Positions 13,765 through 49,440 of a stretch of DNA of 64,000 nucleotides are shown piece after piece; the first letter of the stretch is position 1, and every line of letters begins with the position of its first letter. Source of the DNA: Octopus vulgaris (lineage: Eukaryota); contig OX597816.1 of assembly GCA_951406725.2 (NCBI GenBank), positions 151,776,001-151,840,000 of the forward strand, in the 5' to 3' direction. The notes below the pieces were generated by a model, which did not search any database, was not told the DNA's origin, and saw only the letters and a list, made by a program, of their open reading frames with translations. The translations under genes were made by a program, and so were the position numbers.

Positions 13765-14137
13765 CTAGCAGTATCGCCCGGCGTTGCTCAGGTTTGTAAG
13801 GGAAATAACTTTAAAGCATTTTTAGAGAGTTATAGCAAAAAAATGGAAAAAAATGATGGTAAATTTTTTTTGAGATTTAAAAAAGGTGGAGTTGCGTCCC
13901 CTAGACAGTTTGTGGTTCGTGTTTCTGATTCTCGACCCCATGTCGAATTTATCGATTTTTTTCAGAACTGGGAGAACTTTTCAAAATTTTCGCTGCGTTA
14001 GTTTTGAATTATGACATTGGGCTATGTGTGTGTCAAGTTTCATCAGAATCTTTTGAAAGCCGTGGTCAGGGTGAGGGTACAAGCAAACAGACACACAGAA
14101 ACACGCACAGACAAACTGCCGTTTATATAGAGAGAGA
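13765..14137 (-). mobile_element. Non-autonomous Helitron
   Basis: - strand starts TC(TCTCTATATAAA) and ends CCTGAGCAACGCCGGGCGATACTGCTAG (hairpin + CTAG), between A and T, no TSD; 3' end shared with the array at 46.6-48.2 kb. Confidence 0.75.
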
Positions 14138-14143
14138 TATATA

Positions 14144-15747
14144 CAGTGGCGGCCAAAATGTTCAGAACAGCATTGTTTTCGTCAGAAAAGTAGATATACT
14201 TTTTTATCAAAGTTGTTTTATATTCTATAATTTTCTCAGACAATAAATACGATATTATTTGTTATTGCCTGAGATTTTGGTGTAATTTGAGAGGATAATA
14301 CAAAAGTTATGGATGATTTAGTGATTTACTGCAAAACCCATGGCAGCCAAAATGATCAGAACGGTTGCTTTTACTCCGTGTTTTAGTATATTTAACCAGT
14401 GAACTCTAATGTTTTGAATTTGTTTACGTGACGGTTCGTTTACTAAACATTAGTAAGAATATTTGCAGTGTACTTTGTTAATATAATGCCACTTACTCCG
14501 TTACCAATTCGTCAGCAGATTATTAAGCTTCGAAGGAAGGATAATTTAAGTATTGGATCTATTGCAAAGATTGTTAACAAGTCAAAAAGTGTTGTACACG
14601 GTATTCTTAAGGTCTACGATGATTGTGGTTCGTGTGAAGCAAGAAAGTTTACAGGTAGGCCAAGAAAAACGACCAAGAGAGAAGATTGTGCTATGGTAAA
14701 GTTGGTTAAAAAGGACAGATTTAAAACTACTGCTGCTGTTTCTTGGAAAATGAGCATTGTATTGAAGAAAACTTTATCTCGAAAAACTGTGTCTCGTCGT
14801 TTAGTTGAACATGACCTACAAGCAAGAGCACCTGCAGTGAAGCCACTGATCAGCTCCAAGAATAAAAAGTGTCGTCTTACCTTGCAACCAAACATGTGTT
14901 GTGGTCGCAAGAAAAATGGCAAATGGTGCATTTCAGTGATGAATTTAAGTTTATGTTATTTGGCTCAGATGGGAAAAGGTACGTTCGTAGAAAAGTAGGT
15001 GAAAAATTGTCGCCTAAATGCCTTAAAACTAGTGTTAAATTCGGTGGAGGAAGTGTCATGGTTTGGGGGATGATATCTGGAGATGGTGTGGGCCCTTTGG
15101 TGCGATTACATGGAAAGGTAAATGCAGGAGTTTATAAACAACTTGTAAAAGATCATGTCTTGCCTGTGCTGAGAAATTCAACTAAGCGACCACCCATATT
15201 CATGCAGGACAATGCCCCATGTCACAAGGCTAAGGTGGTCATGAACTTCCTCAAGGCTGAAAAGGTTATTGTTATGAATTGGCCTGCTCAAAGCCCAGAT
15301 CTCATTCATATTGAAAATGTATGGAATATTCTAGGAGAACGTTCGAAAGCCAGAAATCCTAAAACAACTGAGCAATTATGGAATAAGATCACCCTGCAAG
15401 AAATCGAAAATTTAATTTCCTCATGCAGTCGAAGATGTCAGAGTGTGATTGAAGCTAAAGGGCTTCACACTAGATATTAAATAATTCCAGTATTCTCTCT
15501 CATTTTTTATTATTTTGTTATTTTTTCAACCGTTCTGATCATTTTGGCTGCCATGGGTTTTGCAGTAAATCACTAAATCACCCATAACTTTTGTATTATC
15601 CTCTCAAATTACACCAAAATCTCAGACAATAACAATTAATATTGTATTTATTGTCTGTGAAAATTATAGAATATAAAACTACTTTAATAAAAAGTTATAT
15701 CTACTTTTCTGATGAAAACAATGCCGTTCTGAACATTTTGGCCGCAA

Positions 15748-15750
<3 letters not shown>
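14144..15750 (+). mobile_element. Tc1-family DNA transposon, IR/DR type (1607 bp)
   Basis: TA|CAGTGGCGGCCAAAATGTTCAGAAC...GTTCTGAACATTTTGGCCGCAACTG|TA; ~220-bp TIRs (14144-14367, ~15527-15750), each with an inner direct repeat GGCAGCCAAAATGATCAGAAC. Confidence 0.95.
14486..15480 (+). pseudogene. Tc1 DD34E transposase, frameshifted near 14880
   Basis: paired-like HTH + GRPRKT in the first ORF; FSDE, GGGSVMVWG, MQDNAPCH, WPAQSPDLIHIE (34 aa between D and E) in the second ORF. Confidence 0.93.
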
Positions 15751-15805
<55 letters not shown>

Positions 15806-29815: not shown

Positions 29816-32325
29816 CGATATTTAATAACCGACTTTTAAACATTTACATATTTGTTTCACTTATTCAGGATATCCATGAACCAGAAAAGTACAAAAATAA
29901 ACTTGAGTATTCCAAGTAAGCAAAACGAATTTGTAAATGTTTAAAAATCACTTTTTAGGAGCGATTATAATGTATTTCTCTCTTCAATTACTGAACAGCA
30001 TAATTTTAGAGAAAACACTTCTTATAAGGATGAAAAAGTATATTCAAAAGTATAGCAAACTGCATGGTGCCATGAAAAAAAAGCACCCAGTACACTCTGT
30101 AAAGTAGTTGATGTTAGGAAGGGCATCAAACTGTAGACAATGGAGTACAATGCAGTCCTTGGATCCATCAGATCCTGTTAAACCATCCAAACCATGCCAA
30201 TATGGAACATGAAGATTAAATGATGCTAATAATGACTGTGAAATACAAAACATTTAAAACATAATGAGGGCTGTAGCATTAAGGATGTGTAGGAGGGTAG
30301 CTGATATTGTTGTCAGCTGGTTTTTAAGTTTTCCAGTAGTTACTTGGATCTGTGCATACAAAAGGAGATCAATTCTGATGTAAGCTCAAACCTGATCCAG
30401 TATGATATGTATGTACACAAGCAACAAACATTGACTGGATAAAATATTCAAAAGAAGGTGCAGAGTCAAATATTTATTAAAAAGGTTGACTGTTCCTTTG
30501 TAGTTTGATGGAAGTATTTTTCGAAAACAATGTGTGTGTATGTAGAGGAGAGTGTTATCACGACAATTTCAATCTATTTTTTCCATGCTTGTATAGGTTT
30601 AACAGGTCTTCTTTAGCACACATACGACATGCTTTTTTTTTCAGTTTTCATCAACTAAATTCACTGAAAGTCTTTGGCAGTCTAGAGTTATAGCAAAAGA
30701 CACCTGCCCATGGTGCTGCAGGGTGGAACTAAACTCAAAACACATGGCTGTGAAGCAAACTTCTAAACCAAACAGCTATGTCTGTGTCTAATTATACCAG
30801 GTTTTTGAATTATAAAGTAAGCTTCAGTTTTTGAATACTATCACTAATTATAACATATTAAGAAAACATTTCTTTTTAAAGAATATTTTTGCTTATTTGT
30901 AATCATGTTTTAAAGTTTCACTAACGAGATTGCTTTCATGATAAAATGTGAAAGAATACTATTATACTTTCATTATTCTGGATCTTTACATTTTGAATTT
31001 AAGTCTTACTGAGGTCAATTGATAAAATAAAGTACCAGCCTAGTACCAGGGTCAATGATATTGACTATCATCTCTAAATTGTTGGTCTCATGCATAAATC
31101 AGAAACCATTGCTGAATATACATTACTTTTATCATTTGGCTCAGGAAGATTGTGATTTGGTGGAATCGTTAGACTGTCAGATTAATTATCTCATGATATT
31201 TGTTCCAGCCCTTTATGTTTTGAGTTCAAATGCTACTGAGGTCAACTATATCATTTATCCTTTGGGGTGGATAAAGTAAAGTATCAAGTGTTAGTGTTGA
31301 TGGTATTGACGTATTTCCTTCCCCTCAAAAGAGCAGACCTTATGCATTAATTAGAATCCATTATTTGGCTCCAGATAAAAAGTGAAAGATGTATCTGTAA
31401 TGAGAAACCTCATCAACTGATGAAGGTTGTCTGATGTGTGGTTATTGGAAACTGAAATTATTAAGTCTGAGTATTTAGCTCTGGAAAAATTCTCTGAAAG
31501 AAATTCTTCAAAAATGAGTATTGAACTATACTAATGCTTTCGTTTCTGATTACATATTAGTTTAATTATTAGACTCACTAATTGACTTTTTTTTTTGTCT
31601 TGAAGCAAAAAGAAAATCAAAATGCAACATTGAAGTTGTGAACTTTTTTTTTTTTGTCGGAATTATAGAAGCTAAAGAAATTTTCTTGGCAATAAATAAT
31701 AATAATAATAATAATAATAAAAGTGGAAGAATGTTAGTACGAAAAACAGAATAGTTAAATCCTTCACCCATCCTCATTCAGGCAAATTACGAGGATCAAA
31801 GACCCCTGTTTACATCCCGAAATAGATATGGTTAAGAATGAATAAGGTCAGTCCTCTTCTAAATATAGATATTGTTCAGAAGGACAGAGTATGAACTGAA
31901 AAATTCAACAGAATCAATGAATGGATACCAGTTGTTGATATTTTGAAGGTTTCTAACATGAAAGTAAACGTTAATGAATGAAGTCACAACATTTTTGTTT
32001 TTGTTTTTTTTTGTTTTGTTTTTGAGAGAGAAAGAGAGAACAGGTGTAGGCAATGAAACTCTACAACACATACAAAAAAAAAAAAGGGAAAGGAAAATAC
32101 CCCAACCCATCACGTATACAAACACGTGAGTAATTGGGAGAAGTAAACAAAAATAAAACATGATGGCTCGTGTTAACTTGCTGGAACCAGTTAAAGAGAG
32201 TTCCTTTACGGGTTCCAGTTAACATTGCCCATGCTGGGGCACGATAACTCATGAAAACTTGTTGTCAACATATCAATAAACAAACACAGAATATACAAAC
32301 AAATACAAGTAATCTTTCAACTTAC

Positions 32326-33038
32326 TGATTGAAGGACGAAAGTTCGATTTTTCTGATATCACCACTGTTACTTCCATTCGTACAAAAAAAGTCATATTTG
32401 CGACTTCGTTTTCGTTTCCCCGGTAAAATGTTCATAGCGTCGTCTGACTCGGTTAAACATTTTAAATTCATGTTGCCATCGTGAAACATCCTCTGTCGCG
32501 TCGAGATCCGTGAACCCTTGGTTTTACATCGAGTCAAAGTAAAGTGGTCGCAGGAGATCGGGTCGACAGTCATACTGCGAAATTTTCTCCGTCTCCGTTG
32601 CGTGTCAGTCGGGGAAAAAGTTTCTGGTACGGAATCGGATTCCACAGGTGGAACCATAGCAGGAAGAGGAAGTCCTATTTGGGATAGATGTTTAACAACG
32701 TCCAAGTCATCCGAATCACTGTGCTGAACAACACTCTGGAGGTAGTCTTTAAAAGCTTCATCTAAACTGCTTTCTGAGGCTTCGCTGAAGTTGCCACTTT
32801 CCCATATCAAGTTGGTGTTCGACCGCCGTTTTCGGGGTTTTTTCTTCTTGTAATGCCTTCTGATAATGGTCGGTGCCGAATTTTCTTCCCCATTGTTCCT
32901 GGATGTTTCTTCAAGAGCATTGGTTAAATCTTGAACTAATTCGTCCATTTTCTCTAAGTTACATGTAGACAAAACATGTAAGTTTTGGAACTCTCTTACG
33001 ATGTAATTCTCCATTTGCTGCCTGCTTCCATCACACAT
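32326..33038 (-). CDS. GPATCH2: G patch domain-containing protein 2 family, first large coding exon
   Basis: MDELVQDLTNALEETS, RKRRS, SEASESSLDEAFKDY, HSDSDD, ESDS..E.FSP...QRRRRK resemble GPATCH2/GPATCH2L N-termini; acceptor just upstream of 33044, ca|GTAAG donor at 32325. Confidence 0.9.
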
Positions 33039-34334
33039 GTCAAACTATAAAACAAATAAAGAAAATCAAGAATATTCTAAAATTAGAAGAAGAAAACAAA
33101 AACAACAACAAAAAACAAAAACAAAAAAAAACAAACGAAATAAACCCAAGAAAACTTTCCGAGCTATCGGATTGTTTTCTCCTCCTTATTTCAGTACGCA
33201 GAAATGAATCTCTACAAAAACATTACAAATAGATACTGAAGAAACCTCACAAACATTAAAACATGGAAGATTAAACAGACCATTTGCAGCAATCCAACAT
33301 GCATAAACAAACACATGCACCTACAACGATTAACCTCACCTCTTCATACAAATAAACATCAGTAAAGCGACCGACAAACGGAGAGAAAAATCTAAGCTGG
33401 TGTTTCATAACCTCTATAGTTTATCGTCATAGATATTACATAATAATAATAATAAAACGTATCGCACTATCTCCTTCATAAGCCCGAACTATTGCGACTG
33501 TAAGAAGTTGAAGGTGTAAAACGAATAAAATATTAGATTAATTGTAAGGGCCTTACACTCGATCATAGCACTATTATTGTTATAGAAAGTACAGCATCAG
33601 TGGGAAGTAGCAATAATGCACGCACAACTTCAAAAGAGATGCAATGTAAGCTCTATCTCCTCTCCATATGGTTATTTACGAAGACAACTAAATTCATACA
33701 AAGCTGGCCAATCGAAATACACAGCAGAATTCTTTATAGAATAGTTCAGGAATAACACGGTGGCAATCGAAGTTAACTGCTATTTGAAGCACTTTGCAAA
33801 CTTGGAAAACCATTCAGAAAGTGTAAACATGGATGACTGGATTTAAGGTGAAAGTTAGATAATGACTGGATTTAGGACACTTGCTGCATTTATTCTTCAC
33901 TTGACGATATACTTGACGGTAGCCTCAACGCGATCACTCGCCATGCTAGAAACAGTAGTCAAATCTCCCCATGATCATAAGATCATATTTGTAATCTTAG
34001 ATATAGTGTTTTTAAATAAAAGAGGGAATGAACACAGAACGTCCTTGATCAAAGGCTAAACAAGGGTGGGAGTCACTAAATGGTTGTACGATCAGCTAGA
34101 AAGAAGTAACATTAGATAATGTGACCCGACAAAAAAAAAAAAAAAAAAAAAGAGGGGGTGTTCAAGGCCAGATTATTTTTTATCATAACTTTTTCCAGTC
34201 CGACCTTGGGTCTAAGCAACAAATCATCCTTTGTATATCATGAATATTTGTGTCGCAAGTGAGGAAGCAGAATTATAGAAAACATTCCATATTAGAAAAG
34301 TTATAAAAAATTAAAAAATTGCCGAATTTGTATA

Positions 34335-41962: not shown

Positions 41963-43129
41963 AAAGACGAGTGCAAATAAAATTATACAAAACTGGTGTC
42001 CTTTTGGGCACAATTTGACATCCCCTCTCTTTATGCAATGAAGTAGGAATTTATAAAATTTGTAACTGTTACCGTCATACATTACTTCAACGCCTCATTT
42101 GGAATCCAGTTCCTTCTGACTTGGATATTTTCCCCTCTCTTTTTTACTAGCACTGCACACTTATCTATTCCAAACTTCATACCAGTCTTGTCACTCACAA
42201 TTCTGTCTGGACCAATGAACCTAAAGCTTTCTCACTTCTGGCAAATAATTTTAGGTTATTCATAAACAGGAGATAATTTATTTTCTCATTACTGCTAAAT
42301 TCGCAGAATGACCTTTGTCTCTCTCAAAATTAACCTAAGAGGAATATGACCAACTGTATATAGCAGCAGCAAGAATGTACCACCTTCTAATATACCCTTT
42401 ATATGCTGACCACTTCTAACTTATCTCAACTTGATGTTAATTTAGTTTTCCATTTCGATATATTGTTTTGTAAGAGATGAACAACATTCTCAGCTATCCC
42501 AAATATATTGAAGCATTCTTGGGTGTGCCTTTTCTACACCCATCTTTTTTTCTTCTGGCAGTAGACCTCTCTTTTCAAAATATTTATACATATCCTTTAC
42601 AATAACACCTTTCAATAACATCAATGGAAGGTAGGTTATTGGTCGGTAGTTCCTTGCCATATTTCGTTTTTTAATTTTTAACTTTTTTTTTTATATATTT
42701 CATTATCAATATTGTATTTCGGGAACATTGCTTATTCCCGAAAGGATGTGCACTCATTCTCTCGCAAAGTGCAGAGAAATTTTTGAGCCAAATTCCTTGG
42801 ATCATTAAATATTAAATACTATTTAGACTGAACGTGTTTGTCATGATAAGCAAGATCAACGATAAGACGACAAAAAATAAAAAGAAGAAAAAGAAAAAAA
42901 AATACCCTAGAAGACGTAATTTAAAAAAAAATCCTTAAAAACACATTTTATGTGTCTAGATTTCTAAAAAAAAACAAAAACAAAAAAGCCTCGTGAGTAA
43001 ATTTGGTGGACGGAAACTATATGGAAGTCCATCGTACGCTTTTTCTTCAGATTACGCGCTGCCATCTTACAAAATGAACACATTGGCCATGAAAAAAAGT
43101 GAAATAATCAAGACTGGAATGCTTTTGAT

Positions 43130-44631
43130 GGTACTTGTCAATTGTCGTGGTCCCGGTTTTGCACGCGCGAATTCGCGCGCGCGCGCGCGCGCGTCAGACA
43201 TAGGTACTCGATACTCGAGATCCTACGAGGTGACTTGCGCATGCGCAGTGCAGAATTCGCGCGTGCGCGTTAACCCCCCCCCCTAAAAAAAAAAAGGTGT
43301 TGGATTTCACTAAAAATATATATGTGTGTGTGTGTGTGTATATATAACATTTTCAATTTTACACAAAAAAATTACATAGTCGCTTTCCTCGCGGATTTAC
43401 AGAGAAATGAATTAATTACTATTTTACAGAATAAAATTAATGAATTAATTATATAAATTAAATAATTCTTGAAAATTAATTAATATTAATAATATTTTTT
43501 GAACAAAGTAAATAATTTATAAAACTTGGTTAATAATTTTTTTTACACAAACGCGAACGTATATAATTTGTGAAACTTTTTTTTTTACAGACGTATATAA
43601 TTTGGTAAACTTAATGAATTAATTTCTTCTCATCATCATCATCGTTTAACGTCCGTTCTCCATGCCAGCATGGGTTGGACGGTTTGACCGGGATCTGGGA
43701 AGCCAGAAGGCTGCACCAGACTCCAGTCTTATCTGGCAATGTTTCTACAGCTGGATGCCCTTCCTAACGCCAACCACTCCGAGAGTGTAGTGGGTGCTTT
43801 TTACATGCCACCCGCACAGGTGCCAGGCGAGGCTGGCAACGGCCACGGTCGGATTGGTGCCAGTCGAGGCGGCTCTGGCATCGGCCACGATTCGGATAGT
43901 GCTTTTTATGTACCACCAGTCCAGGGGTCCTGGCATTTGCCGGGTGCCACACTTGCCCCAACATGTCTTCGCAAGCAAAGGGGGTTGGCATGGGTGCCTG
44001 TCGTGGGATGAGGTTCGATATCAACTTCGCTTGCCTCAACAGGTCTTTGTGTATAAATGTATAAATTTTTCGCACTAAATTCTTTCCGTAGAATTTATAA
44101 AAAAACGCGCAAAATTATTCCGTAGACTTTATCAAATTAAAAAACGCAAAATTAATATATTTTTTGAAATTGCAAATTATTTAGAATATAAAACAAATTA
44201 AGTTAAATTTTAAAAATAAATGTCATATACTTATACTCTGTAAGGTGCTGTGTTCACACTTCAATTTACTATTTTCTAGAAATGTTGCTTTTCTAATTGA
44301 AACAATTTTTCTCAATCTCCATTTAAAAGTCCATAATGCCTCTTGAGCCATATCAAAATGAACAACTTTGAATTACCCGGTGGTGGTGGTGGTGGTGTGA
44401 GGTTCTAATCTTTTTTCTGATCTCTCTTTGCCCCCTCTTTATCTCAGTTGTTCATTCAGCTAATATTTAGAAAAATTTTCGCGCCCAATTTTTGTTGTCG
44501 CGGGAAAAGATGAACGATTTAAAATAAATATATCTTAATTGTAGTGTGAGAAAGTATATATATTCTGATGACAAAATATATTATCTTTCAAAAACATCCC
44601 AAATTTATAGACTATATCGTGTAGGTTTAAG

Positions 44632-44664
<33 letters not shown>

Positions 44665-46032
44665 TATATATATATATACATATATAGTAGAGAATGAAAC
44701 ATCTTTCATCTGTCTCCCCACCACACCTCCATCTAGGGGGGGGGCAAAGAGAGATCAGAAAAAAAATTAGAACCTCACACCACCACCACCACCGGGTAAT
44801 TCAAAGTTGTTCATTTTGATATGGCTCAAGAGGCATTATGGACTTTTAAATGGAGATTGAGAAAAATTGTTTCAATTAGAAAAGCAACATTTCTAGAAAA
44901 TAGTAAATTGAAGTGTGAACACAGCACCTTACAGAGTATAAGTATATGACATTTATTTTTAAAATTTAACTTAATTTGTTTTATATTCTAAATAATTTGC
45001 AATTTCAAAAATATATTAATTTTGCGTTTTTTAATTTGATAAAGTCTACGGAATAATTTTGCGCGTTTTTTTATAAATTCTACGGAAAGAATTTAGTGCG
45101 AAAAATTTATACATTTATACACAAAGACCTGTTGAGGCAAGCGAAGTTGATATCGAACCTCATCCCACGACAGGCACCCATGCCAACCCCCTTTGCTTGC
45201 GAAGACATGTTGGGGCAAGTGTGGCACCCGGCAAATGCCAGGACCCCTGGACTGGTGGTACGTAAAAGCACTATCCGAATCGTGGCCGATGCCAGAGCCG
45301 CCTCGACTGGCACCAATCCGACCGTGGCCGTTGCCAGCCTCGCCTGGCACCTGTGCGGGTGGCATGTAAAAAGCACCCACTACACTCTCGGAGTGGTTGG
45401 CGTTAGGAAGGGCATCCAGCTGTAGAAACATTGCCAGATAAGACTGGAGTCTGGTGCAGCCTTCTGGCTTCCCAGATCCCCGGTCGAACCGTCCAACCCA
45501 TGCTGGCATGGAGAACGGACGTTAAACGATGATGATGATAAGAAATTAATTCATTAAGTTTACCAAATTATATACGTCTGTAAAAAAAAAAAGTTTCACA
45601 AATTATATACGTTCGCGTTTGTGTAAAAAAAATTATTAACCAAGTTTTATAAATTATTTACTTTGTTCAAAAAATATTATTAATATTAATTAATTTTCAA
45701 GAATTATTTAATTTATATAATTAATTCATTAATTTTATTCTGTAAAATAGTAATTAATTCATTTCTCTGTAAATCCGCGAGGAAAGCGACTATGTAATTT
45801 TTTTGTGTAAAATTGAAAATGTTATATATACACACACACACACACACATATATTTTTAGTGAAATCCAACACCTTTTTTTTTAGGGGGGGGGTTAACGCG
45901 CACGCGCGAATTCTGCACTGCGCATGCGCAAGTCACCTCGTAGGATCTCGAGTATCGAGTACCTACGTCTGACGCGCGCGCGCGCGCGAATTCGCGTGTG
46001 CAAAACCGGGACCACGACAATTGACAAGTACC
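43130..46032. mobile_element. Non-autonomous foldback DNA transposon (Merlin- or MULE-type), 2903 bp, ~1.3-kb arms
   Basis: arms 43130-~44436 and ~44735-46032 are near-perfect reverse complements; termini GGTACTTGTCAATTGTCGTGG; 9-bp TSD GCTTTTGAT at 43121-43129 and 46033-46041; ~300-bp noncoding spacer. Confidence 0.92.
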
Positions 46033-46631
46033 GCTTTTGATTATGGGTCAGCTCAATAAAACCTGATGTGGCGCTAAACAACAACATGCATCATACACAC
46101 ACATGGATACATGCATGCATGCATGTATGTATGTATGTATATATGTATGTATGTCTGCATGCATGCGCACAGACGTATCTGTGTTTGCGTTCACTTCTGC
46201 TGGACAACTAGTGTTTGTTTATTTACGCCCGTAACTTAGTGGTTCGGCAAAAGAGACACATAGAATAAATAACAGAGTTAAAAATGATACTGGGGTGACA
46301 TGTTCAACTAAACTCCTCGTGTCGGTGCCTCAGAATGGCTACAATCCAATGACTGAAGCAAGTAAAAGATAACAGATGAAGGATTTTTGAAAATCACGTA
46401 CAAAAGGAAATGAAACAAAATTGATTCGTATTTTCTTTGATAACTCGAACCACAAATGTCATTGTTATAGTTGGATAATCAACACGTATAGAAAAAAACT
46501 GCAAGATTTTAATGGAAGTTGGTTAATCAGATTTGAGAAATATTTGCGCCGAAGCGAGAATGAAACAAAATTTATAGTTGCTGAGTTATCTCCCTTACAT
46601 TCATAAAGCCTGTTTTTCCCCCAAGACATCT

Positions 46632-48184
46632 TCTTTATATATAAAAGTGAAGTTGTGTGAGTGTCTGTCTCCTACGATTTAGATTCCTAACTACCCCTAC
46701 ATTTTGCGGTGCAGTTTAACCAAAACCGGGTATCGTATAGTCGTGATTCATATCGAGCCCTTCTGGGTATTAGCGCGCGTCTACGATGAGTACGATTTAA
46801 AAAAGAATTTACCATCATTTTTTCCCATTTTTAATGCATTTTTTGCTATTATATAAGGGAAGTAACTCTCTAAAAATCCTTATATAGTTATTTCCTTTAC
46901 AAACCCGAGCAACGCCGGGCGATACTGCTAGTCTATATATATAAAAGTGAAGTTGTGTGAGTGTCTGTCTCCTACGATTTAGATTCCTAACTACTCCCAC
47001 ATTTTGCGGTGCAGTTTAACCAAATTCGGGTATCTTATAGTCGTGATTCATATCGAGCCCGTCTGGGTACTAGCACGCGTCTACGATTTTAAAAATAATT
47101 TACCATAATTTTTTTCCATTTTAACGCATATTTTTTAAATAAAGGGAAGGCAGCAGAGTTGGCATCCATGCTCACACCTGCACCTGTGTTGCTTCTCCCC
47201 CTTCTTCCCTCCCTCGTGAAGCTGTGGGGAAGGGAGTGTAAGGAAATCAACGTCGTAAAGCGTTGTCAAGGAGACCAGCGTTCTTTTAGAACAACGACTT
47301 CATGGCTTGAAGTCGCCAAAACAGAAATCGCTAAAAAAGGTGAAACAGATCCACAAAAACGGCAAAAACCGCCACACAGGGCAGGTTTCCTGTGCAAACA
47401 ATTTGCACAACCGAATGTTTTAGTTGTTGCACAAATCTTTATATATAAAAGTGAAGTTGTGTGTCTGTCTCCTACGATTTAGATTCCTAACTACTCCCAC
47501 ATTTTGCAGTGCAGTTTAACCCAAACCGGGTATCTTATAGTCGTGATTCATATCGAGCCCTTCTGGGTATTAGCGCGCGTCTACGATGAGTCTACGATTA
47601 AAAAAAAAATTTACCATCATTTTTTCCATTTTAATGTATTTTTTCGCTATTATATAAGGGAAGTAACTCTCTAAAAATGTCTACGATGAGTCAACGATTT
47701 AAAAAAAAAATACCATCATTTTTTATTCCATTTTTAATGCATTTTTTGCTATAACTCTCTAAAAATGCTTATATAGTTATTTCCCTTACAAACCCGAGCA
47801 ACGCCGGGCGATACTGCTAGTCTATATATATAGAAGTGAAGTTGTGTGAGTGTCTGTCTCCTACGATTTAGATTCCTAACTACTCCCACATTTTGCGGTG
47901 CAGTTTAACCAAAACCGGGTATCTTATAGTCGTGATTCATATCGAGCCCTTCTGGGTATTAGCGCGCGTCTACGATGAGTCTACGATTTTAAAAATAATT
48001 TACCATAATTTTTTTCCATTTTAAAGCATAGTTTTTTAATAAAGGGAGGTAACTCTCTAAAAATGTCTACGATGAGTCAACGATTAAAAAAAAAATTTAC
48101 CATAATTTTTTGGCTATAACTCTCTAAAAATGCTTTATAGTTATTTCCCTTACAAACCCGAGCAACGCCGGGCGATACTGCTAG
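46632..48184 (+). mobile_element. Tandem array of non-autonomous Helitron units (46632-46931, 46932-~47145 truncated, 47436-47820, 47821-48184)
   Basis: units start TC(T/A)TATATATA.AAGTGAAGTTG and end CCCGAGCAACGCCGGGCGATACTGCTAG; CTAG|TC junctions at 46931/2 and 47820/1. Confidence 0.88.
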
Positions 48185-48383
48185 TTAGTTATAAATTGTC
48201 TTACAAAAAACAGGCTTTATGTATATGTGGGAGTAGGGGTTGAGAGTATAGTTAGCTGTATATCCAATTTCGTTGCTCATGGATTTGAGAGATAAAGTAT
48301 CAATCTCAAACATCATATAGAGGATCTATTTGTTGTCTTCTTTACGCACAATTTTTTTCAAAGGGATATTCTTTTAGATATTT

Positions 48384-48421
<38 letters not shown>

Positions 48422-48633
48422 TACTCGAATTACCAAGAAAGCCTTTGTGCTGTCGTTCAACCTGCAAAAAATACCAAATTTTCCTCAAATTTCGCGCTGC
48501 CATCTTACAAAATGAACACACTGGCGATAAAAAAACAAAACAAAGAAACAAAAAAAAATGGTCATGAGGGGAACGCCTTTGATCATAGGTCTGCTCAATA
48601 AAAGCTGATATGAAACTAAACCACAGCATGCAC

Positions 48634-48666
<33 letters not shown>

Positions 48667-49440
48667 CTATATCATCATCATCATTATTCAACATCCATTT
48701 TCCATGGTTGTTTGGGTCAGACGGAATTGGTTGAGGGAGATTTTCTATGGATGGGTGCATATCCTGTCGCCATTTCCAAGTAAGGTCACATTTCTCCATA
48801 CCGAGAGATGTTTTTCACGAAAGTCTGGAAACCAGCATCATCATTTATGTCGGTGATGCCTGTTTACAATCATCACATGATGTCAAGGACAAGAGAATAC
48901 ACAGATACATATGCAAATATACAACGGGCTTCCTTCAGTTTCTAACCACCAAATCCGCTCAGCAGACAGCCCAGGGCTATAACAGAACATACTTACTCTT
49001 TGGTGACACCTTAGTGAAATGTATTCTACTATTGTTAATGTTTGACCAACTCCTTGGAGCAAAAATTGTTAGACGGAAGCTATACAGAAGGTAGACGGAA
49101 TCAAGAAAGGGCTTCTTCCAGCTAGAACGACTTGGTGAATGAATTTCTCTCCTTCTGTCTTTGTTTCTCTCAGCCGAAATTGTGAAGATAATCTGGTACT
49201 CGACTGAGAAAAAAAACTCTGAATGACTCGTCCTTGTTTTCTTTGTATCGTCTATCTGGATGTTTTGTTGTCCCATTTTGTATTATATATATATATATAT
49301 TACGGAGATGTACTCGCATAGCAAGTAATTTGATCTGAGATCGTGTGCTGAAACGAAAACAATTGCAGCGTGGAAGGTGTTTATAAGCCATTTAAGAAAC
49401 ACACAAAAGCCGTTCGATTCACTCCAACATTTAAGTTTAA

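What the first reader, a model, noticed from the sequence alone, without database searches (positions are those of the whole stretch)
43121..46041. 2.9-kb foldback transposon: 1.3-kb near-perfect arms, 9-bp TSD and an empty-site paralogue in the same window
Seen: the arms differ only at a handful of positions (several CpG transitions, homopolymer lengths); termini are GGTACTTGTCAATTGTCGTGG; the TSD GCTTTTGAT is exact. Joining the flanks recreates a repeat found uninterrupted at ~48494-48630 (GCGCTGCCATCTTACAAAATGAACAC...CTTTGATCATAGGTCTGCTCAATAAAA), supporting a true insertion. Established: 9-bp TSDs fit MULE/Foldback or Merlin; GG termini fit Merlin, and GGTACTT recalls the nematode PAL8C elements from memory. 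Inference: a young, probably uncatalogued non-autonomous family with unusually long arms, able to form a cruciform or a 1.3-kb dsRNA (siRNA/ADAR substrate).
Basis: partly seen in the sequence, partly recalled or inferred. Interest (0 to 1): 0.75.

Follow-up and report, generated by a model that had tools for sequence, protein, structure and literature searches.

The report
Mirror-image Merlin transposon family in octopus
This is one of about fifty near-identical copies of a young jumping-DNA family, in what is likely an octopus genome, whose two halves mirror each other over 1,300 letters; it descends from a Merlin-type transposon, is likely moved by that transposon's enzyme, and its two halves likely keep copying from each other.

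Summary
Observation confirmed: a 2,903-bp element (43130-46032) with 1,306/1,293-bp inverted arms, an exact 9-bp TSD and an empty-site paralogue. It is no assembly artefact. The genome holds 114 exact termini; of 45 paired copies examined, 28 have 9-bp and 12 have 8-bp TSDs. One insertion seen in two independent runs is empty in this assembly. The superfamily is Merlin, not MULE: the outer arm is the 3' end, and the spacer the 5' upstream region, of a Merlin transposase family found at three loci, one with an intact 294-aa DDE ORF. The arms are chimeric (parent 3' end, a high-copy repeat, a scrap of a second Merlin family) and appear to evolve in concert: 16 variants sit on both arms of one copy against 1.05 expected, and the spacer appears to have flipped in one clade. 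Copies are about 0.1% from consensus. Long arms are known from Galileo and MULE foldbacks; my searches found none for Merlin (published TIRs 24-462 bp), but an unseen octopus repeat library may list it. dsRNA or editing is untested. Verdict: new variant of a known kind, moderate interest.

The parts
43121..43129 (.). left target-site duplication GCTTTTGAT
   Evidence: exact 9-bp direct repeat
43130..44435 (+). left arm (arm A, 1,306 bp), collinear with the parent Merlin read from its 3' end inward
43130..43524 (-). 3' terminal 395 bp of the parent Merlin, including the terminal inverted repeat
   Evidence: 353/428 columns (353 of 373 ungapped bases) to L095:759-1164, downstream of the transposase stop; same at the C9 and C14 copies
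43525..43629 (-). AT-rich subterminal segment shared with related Merlin 3' ends
   Evidence: 68-82% to L153 and L139
43630..44045 (-). high-copy dispersed repeat with a (GAT)n end, present at the same place in both arms; SINE-like identity is recalled, inner boundary approximate
   Evidence: 43630-43860 matches six other places in the window at 73-89%; mirror part 45144-45591 has by far the highest summed contig depth of the element
44080..44397 (-). internally deleted scrap of a second Merlin family (GGCAC termini): 5' piece, transposase fragment, 3' subterminal piece, no TIRs
   Evidence: 68-96% pieces against L124, L125, L127
44251..44312 (-). Merlin transposase N-terminal coding fragment (mirror copy at 44860-44921, + strand)
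   Evidence: 62 bp at 92-94% inside the L124/L127 transposase; tblastn E 1e-9 against in-genome Merlin ORFs
44436..44739 (.). unique 304-bp spacer; 44487-44656 is the region upstream of the parent transposase, followed by (TA)n
   Evidence: 96% over 78 bp to L095, 87-90% over 157-175 bp to L118, 88% to L148; all 305 query bases matched at 92-100% in 37 of 40 scored candidates
44740..46032 (-). right arm (arm B, 1,293 bp), inverted duplicate of arm A
46033..46041 (.). right target-site duplication GCTTTTGAT
48479..48645 (+). empty-site paralogue of the host repeat (not part of the element)
   Evidence: 74%, E 5e-27 to the joined flanks; member of a dispersed family

Best explanation
It is a non-coding foldback derivative of a Merlin (IS1595-like) DNA transposon, present in about fifty near-identical copies, that is likely cut and pasted in trans by a Merlin transposase and whose two 1.3-kb arms are likely kept alike by recombination between them. 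Shown: the family, the 8/9-bp TSDs, descent of the outer arm and spacer from a Merlin transposase locus, the chimeric arm, and an excess of variants shared by both arms of a copy. Inferred steps: (1) a Merlin copy lost its transposase and took up a repeat and a scrap of a second Merlin family, likely by template switching during gap repair; (2) its 5' end was replaced by an inverted copy of the 3' 1.3 kb, likely by break repair templated on the other end, which gave two identical 3' ends; (3) the related transposase, perhaps from the immobile intact copy at G000:C11, amplified it within roughly the last 0.3 Myr; (4) arm-to-arm conversion copies new variants across, crossovers flip the spacer, and aborted repair deletes most of one arm.
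For: 114 exact termini, 0 for the control. 38 of 45 paired copies are 2.84-2.96 kb; 40 of 45 have exact 8- or 9-bp TSDs of differing sequence. The same terminus lies downstream, and the spacer sequence upstream, of one Merlin transposase family at three loci. The C11 ORF is 294 aa, PF12762 71 bits against a cut-off of 27, with D137 invariant and D198 and E239 at least 90% conserved in 30 aligned proteins. Both-arm variants: 16 in 11 of 41 copies against a permutation mean of 1.05 (max 10 in 20,000); 9 against 0.71 (max 5) without the three older copies. L121 and L123 carry three older terminal states on both arms, the consensus carries the newer states on both arms, and L085 is old on one arm and new on the other yet has a TSD. 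A 36-bp deletion sits on arm B in L036 and L049 but on arm A in L058, and all three share one both-arm variant. Older relatives with other TIR variants have the same TIR type at both ends and one-arm deletions at four different breakpoints. One flank joined to the terminus in runs X2 and X14 (two studies) is empty in G000. Divergence from consensus is 0.0012 per site.
Against: Transposition by this enzyme is not shown. No complete parent with both ends was found: the three copies lack a 5' TIR in the DNA fetched, the C9 copy has a stop and the C14 copy is frameshifted. The young TIR differs from the C11 parent at 2 of the first 27 bases, and at least 150 Merlin-domain matches exist, so another family could be the mobiliser. 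Most variant calls are single-arm (61 against 16 both-arm), so conversion is partial. Private both-arm variants could come from assembly polishing that cannot tell the arms apart. The older short-ended copies L202/L203 (ends about 10% apart) could be precursors and not deletion products. Three of 45 copies have no TSD.
Confidence: 0.8

Rival explanations
1. It is a Merlin-derived foldback, but the arms were duplicated once, recently, from a one-armed precursor and have evolved independently since; both-arm variants are polishing artefacts.
For: 61 of the variant calls are single-arm. L202/L203 have one long arm and a 133-bp, about 10% diverged other end, as a precursor would. The assembly has N gaps inside two copies, so these loci are hard to assemble.
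Against: Full palindromes of an older type exist (L121, L123) with old states on both arms, and there is a mosaic copy (L085). Polishing cannot turn whole subfamilies over on both arms. Older short copies keep an inverted piece of the inner arm end or break near it, at four different breakpoints.
Confidence: 0.14
2. It is a MULE/Foldback element (like Drosophila FB or nematode Tm1), and the Merlin similarity is captured sequence.
For: 9-bp TSDs predominate (28 of 45), and long arms with 9-bp TSDs describe Tm1 (PMC3169594, passages).
Against: The very terminus, base 1 onward, is the 3' end of a Merlin transposase family at three loci. Twelve of 45 TSDs are 8 bp. The arms lack the internal tandem arrays of classical foldbacks (one search finds only one 2 x 34-bp repeat per arm). 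I did not search the genome for MULE transposases.
Confidence: 0.04
3. The palindrome is an assembly fold-back artefact.
For: The arms are near-identical, and N gaps occur in two copies. No read spanning a whole element was available.
Against: The arms differ at 15 places, are flanked by a TSD and enclose a unique spacer. The same layout recurs in 38 of 45 paired copies with different flanks. Contig record 9 of run X11 carries 308 bp of arm joined to 114 bp of spacer.
Confidence: 0.01

Closest known systems
Merlin superfamily DNA transposons (IS1595/IS1016-related; Feschotte 2004 as summarised in PMC8101967, 12 passages read)
   Same: 5'-GG termini, 8- or 9-bp TSDs, and descent from a locus encoding a DDE_Tnp_IS1595 transposase with intact D, D, E. 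The closest named protein is an Octopus sinensis uncharacterised protein at 91%.
   Different: Arms of 1.3 kb against published TIRs of 24-462 bp. Both ends are copies of the parent's 3' end. No transposase gene; the arms are chimeric between two Merlin families and a high-copy repeat.
Galileo '2RT' extended-TIR copies of Drosophila mojavensis (P superfamily; PMC3573991, 12 and 6 passages read)
   Same: Non-autonomous copies lengthen their TIRs to about 1.2 kb by recruiting internal sequence (TIR1-F1-F1-TIR2), proposed to arise by break repair templated on the other TIR; chimeras between subfamilies occur.
   Different: Galileo is P-superfamily with 7-bp TSDs and often tandem repeats in the TIRs, and its longest arms are 95% alike. 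Here one uniform palindrome has amplified to about 50 copies, with arms differing by about 1.5 substitutions per 982 sites.
MULE/Foldback elements such as Tm1 (PMC3169594, 12 passages) and maize Mu homomorphs (PMC10401008, 2 passages)
   Same: Long arms and 9-bp TSDs. In Mu, left and right TIRs of a subfamily resemble each other more than the autonomous element, with recombination or conversion proposed.
   Different: Different transposase superfamily; here no internally repetitive arms.

Membership tests
Merlin | terminal 5'-GG | tested here: met
   both ends GGTACT in the window; the copies were picked by this terminus, so they add nothing
Merlin | 8- or 9-bp TSD | tested here: met
   28 of 45 exact 9 bp, 12 of 45 exact 8 bp, 1 ambiguous in (TA)n, 1 with two mismatches, 3 none
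Merlin | link to a DDE_Tnp_IS1595 transposase with conserved DDE | tested here: met
   termini and spacer map around the L095 ORF; arms hold a 62-bp Merlin coding fragment; the element itself encodes none
Merlin | TIR length in the described range, 24-462 bp (descriptive, not diagnostic) | tested here: not met
   1,306/1,293 bp against PMC8101967; this is the variant feature
Merlin | mobilised by a Merlin transposase | not testable with these tools
   needs a binding or excision assay
MULE/Foldback | 9-bp (8-10) TSD | tested here: met
   shared with Merlin, so not diagnostic
MULE/Foldback | termini shared with a MULE (PF10551) transposase element | tested here: inconclusive
   termini belong to a Merlin locus; no genome search for PF10551 was run
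MULE/Foldback | modular, internally tandem-repetitive arms | tested here: not met
   Tandem Repeats Finder gives only a 2 x 34-bp repeat in each arm
C. elegans PAL8C-type elements (recalled) | shared terminal sequence | not testable with these tools
   no Repbase; PAL8C had 0 occurrences in the 15 papers listed

The most novel reading that the evidence does not exclude
Octopus Merlin elements repeatedly convert into head-to-head '3'-3'' palindromes (this family, the C9 parent copy, and two copies of an unrelated GGCAC-ended family), and this one is a still-segregating foldback family whose 1.3-kb arms undergo ongoing gene conversion and spacer flipping. That would be the first foldback lineage in the Merlin superfamily, give about 50 replicate loci for measuring inverted-repeat conversion in a mollusc germ line, and supply mobile perfect 1.3-kb RNA hairpins in an animal group with very high ADAR activity.
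Probability: 0.45. Interest if true: 0.6.

Novelty: new variant of a known kind. Interest (0 to 1): 0.42.

Why it matters
It extends the foldback architecture, known from P-type and MULE-type elements, to Merlin, and warns that long arms plus a 9-bp TSD do not identify a MULE. The parent, older subfamilies, mosaic copies and deletion products are all in one genome, so the route from an ordinary transposon to a palindrome can be traced. About 50 young copies with at least one polymorphic site make arm-to-arm conversion and spacer inversion directly testable with long reads. An intact transposase ORF offers a substrate-enzyme pair for a superfamily whose mechanism, by my recall, has not been worked out biochemically. 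No effect on the host is shown.

Tried and rejected
Coding capacity: none of the 8 element ORFs among the 52 ORFs scanned hits Pfam. Rfam: no family reaches its gathering score in 42500-49000; the weak hits are microsatellite look-alikes. A larger autonomous element starting at one of the 10 unpaired termini: all are truncated, gapped or variant-ended copies. A 5' TIR for the parent: none by motif scan in 10 kb around the C11 and C9 copies or in 30 kb at C14. The sister TIR GGTACTTGTATCGCAGAG (72 matches) marks MITEs and other derivatives; it abuts a transposase fragment only in L152. Swapped TSDs explaining the no-TSD copies L053 and L056: no partner among the termini fetched (14 termini were never listed). 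Expression: no RNA holder listed on record. Runs X11 and X14 are only guessed to be RNA; their contigs cover arm and spacer but cannot show strand, level or editing. Contig depths were not used as copy numbers. Earlier notes of the scan: none on this family. Literature: no Merlin foldback in the listings; subscription journals, Repbase, Dfam and the Zenodo library of PMC13282606 were not visible.

Full report
Observation. The element is 43130-46032 (2,903 bp), bounded by an exact 9-bp duplication GCTTTTGAT. Arms are 1,306 and 1,293 bp around a 304-bp spacer and differ by 6 substitutions and 9 gaps. Four substitutions are in a CpG context: three are CpG losses in the left arm and one is a gain against the family consensus. 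Joining the flanks gives a 74% match (E 5e-27) to 48479-48645 with one copy of the target, and that host is a diverged dispersed repeat. As RNA the element is computed to pair 1,287 of 1,306 left-arm bases with the right arm (-2,433.5 kcal/mol); this follows from the sequence and is no evidence of transcription.

It is a family. The 21-base terminus occurs 58 + 56 times in the 2.8-Gb genome, and 0 times for the reversed control. Of the 100 places listed, 90 form 45 facing pairs and 10 are unpaired; 14 were not listed. Of the 45 pairs, 38 are 2,844-2,958 bp. TSDs are exactly 9 bp in 28, exactly 8 bp in 12, ambiguous in (TA)n in 1, 9 bp with two mismatches in 1, and absent in 3; targets are AT-rich without a consensus. 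The unpaired termini are truncated, gapped or variant-ended copies. Public runs under four organism labels hold half or more of the sampled words. A contig of run X11 joins 308 bp of arm to 114 bp of spacer. One flank attached to the terminus in runs X2 and X14, from two studies, occurs once in G000 and is empty there, so insertions segregate among individuals or haplotypes. An assembly fold-back is excluded for practical purposes, although no read spanning a whole copy was available.

The parent is Merlin. A search with PF12762 gave 150 scored matches among 476 candidates; I examined the 30 best loci. At L095 (G000:C11) the element's first 395 bp match the DNA downstream of a transposase, from the first base of the terminus (353/428 columns, 55 of them gaps). 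The spacer matches the DNA upstream of the same ORF (75/78). The same arrangement holds at a C9 and a C14 copy. The C11 ORF is 294 aa without stops, scores 71 bits on DDE_Tnp_IS1595 (cut-off 27) and keeps D137, D198 and E239, which are invariant or at least 90% conserved among the query and 29 homologues chosen from the 120 listed. Its best relative is a 91%-identical Octopus sinensis protein, followed by O. bimaculoides, so the host is likely an octopus. The C9 ORF has a stop, the C14 ORF is frameshifted, and none of the three shows a 5' TIR in the DNA fetched. GG termini and 8/9-bp TSDs are the Merlin hallmarks given in PMC8101967 (passages), which puts TIRs at 24-462 bp.

Anatomy of an arm, outside to inside: the parent's 3' end (43130-43524); a subterminal segment shared with sister families; a very high-copy repeat with a (GAT)n end (from 43630; SINE-like by recall only); and an internally deleted scrap of a second Merlin family with GGCAC termini, including 62 bp of transposase coding sequence at 92-94%. 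Arm A plus the start of the spacer is collinear with the parent, with its transposase replaced. Arm B is an inverted copy of arm A standing where the 5' end should be. The repeat and the scrap sit at the same place in both arms, so the duplication, or a conversion over the whole arm, came after they were acquired.

The arms evolve together. I aligned both arms of 41 full-length copies (37 of the 38 full-length pairs, L062 dropped because its arm end was not found, plus L075, L085, L121, L123) over 982 non-microsatellite columns. Arms of one copy differ by 1.46 substitutions on average, arms of different copies by about 2.2. Sixteen variants lie on both arms of the same copy, in 11 of 41 copies; re-pairing arms at random gives 1.05 (maximum 10 in 20,000), and without the three older copies 9 against 0.71. 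Against this, 61 variant calls are single-arm, and polishing could double a private variant. Evidence that polishing cannot make: L121 and L123 are full palindromes with three older terminal states on both arms, the young consensus has the newer states on both arms, and L085 is old on one arm and new on the other yet flanked by a TSD. A 36-bp deletion lies on arm B in L036 and L049 and on arm A in L058, three copies that share one both-arm variant, which points to a spacer inversion. Older relatives (91-94% alike) have other TIR variants at both ends and have lost most of one arm at four different breakpoints; young copies L032, L047 and L063 show the same kind of loss. L202/L203 could alternatively be precursors. 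Transitions hit 16 of 86 CpG positions against 14 of 322 other C/G positions (p 5e-5), which suggests some germ-line methylation. Mean divergence from consensus is 0.0012 per site in the arms and 0.0010 in the spacer: roughly 0.3 Myr at the 0.0036 per Myr rate used in PMC13282606, an upper bound if assembly errors contribute.

Mechanism. Shown: family, TSDs, Merlin descent, chimeric arms, excess of both-arm variants, one polymorphic site. Inferred: template switching built the chimera; repair of a break at the 5' end using the other end as template made the palindrome, as proposed for Galileo's TIR1-F1-F1-TIR2 copies (PMC3573991, passages); a related Merlin transposase moves it in trans; recombination between the arms converts variants and flips the spacer; aborted repair deletes one arm. 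The folding tendency recurs in this genome's Merlins. The C9 parent has a 1.1-kb inverted duplication of its 5' half (98.5%), the C11 and C14 parents end in a short hairpin at the spacer sequence, and an unrelated GGCAC-ended family has two palindromic copies of 2,345 and 2,103 bp, which did not amplify (5 termini) and show no clear TSD.

Comparison and novelty. It works like Galileo's extended-TIR copies and like MULE foldbacks (PMC3169594; Mu homomorphs, PMC10401008), but by membership it is Merlin. My searches of the held library (listings only, apart from the papers named) showed no Merlin foldback. PMC13282606 (parts 1-2 of 3 and one supplement look-up read) reports 18 Merlin families in O. 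vulgaris, 2 of them recently active with 11 insertions totalling 28,998 bp (about 2.6 kb each). The family may therefore already sit unnamed in that library, which I could not see; the parts I read do not describe its structure. The scan's own notes hold nothing on it. The dsRNA, siRNA or ADAR idea is untested: no run is on record as RNA, and no gene was identified around the window's copy, which lies in a CpG-undepleted stretch.

Verdict. A real, young Merlin-derived foldback family: a new variant of a known kind. It is of interest to transposon specialists for its traceable origin and its testable arm conversion, with no host function shown. Interest 0.42.

Noticed in passing
window 14124-15770: Tc1/mariner element with 244-bp TIRs (93%); transposase split over two frames (HTH_Tnp_Tc3_2 and DDE_3 hits).
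   Followed up: partly
window 32322-33044 (-): 240-aa open frame behind a splice-acceptor-like stretch, probably a host exon; Atlas lead 'G patch domain-containing protein 2-like' at only 0.75, which agrees with my recall of GPATCH2. About 10 kb from the element.
   Followed up: partly
L119:2741-5085 and L120:2501-4603 (G000:C1, C20): Palindromic derivatives of a second Merlin family (GGCAC termini); L119 carries two outward-facing 3' halves of the transposase.
   Followed up: partly
L118:5671-8506 (G000:C9): Parent Merlin copy with a 1.1-kb inverted duplication of its 5' half around an insert that looks like a Helitron helicase fragment (recalled likeness, not tested).
   Followed up: partly
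L095:160-380, L156, L166, L171, L176: MITEs of 220-360 bp with related GGTAC... termini and 8- or 9-bp TSDs.
   Followed up: partly
L053 (G000:C9) and L056 (G000:C11): Full-length copies without a TSD; could mark rearrangements or adjacent deletions; no partner flank found.
   Followed up: partly
L079, L082, L054: N gaps cut two copies, and L082 shares its left target with L054 12 kb away, a possible assembly duplication.
   Followed up: no
window 43236-43247 and its mirror: Perfect palindrome TGCGCATGCGCA in the CpG-rich arm head, resembling the NRF1 binding motif (recalled); it lies at the parent's 3' end, so it is not the transposase promoter.
   Followed up: no
window 46563-48185: Four or more dispersed direct copies of a 225-390-bp unit at 85-93%.
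   Followed up: no
window 30001-64000: Sharp CpG mosaic: o/e 0.0-0.4 at 30-32, 37-39 and 52-59 kb against 0.6-1.4 at 32-37 and 39-51 kb, suggesting methylated gene bodies beside unmethylated DNA.
   Followed up: no
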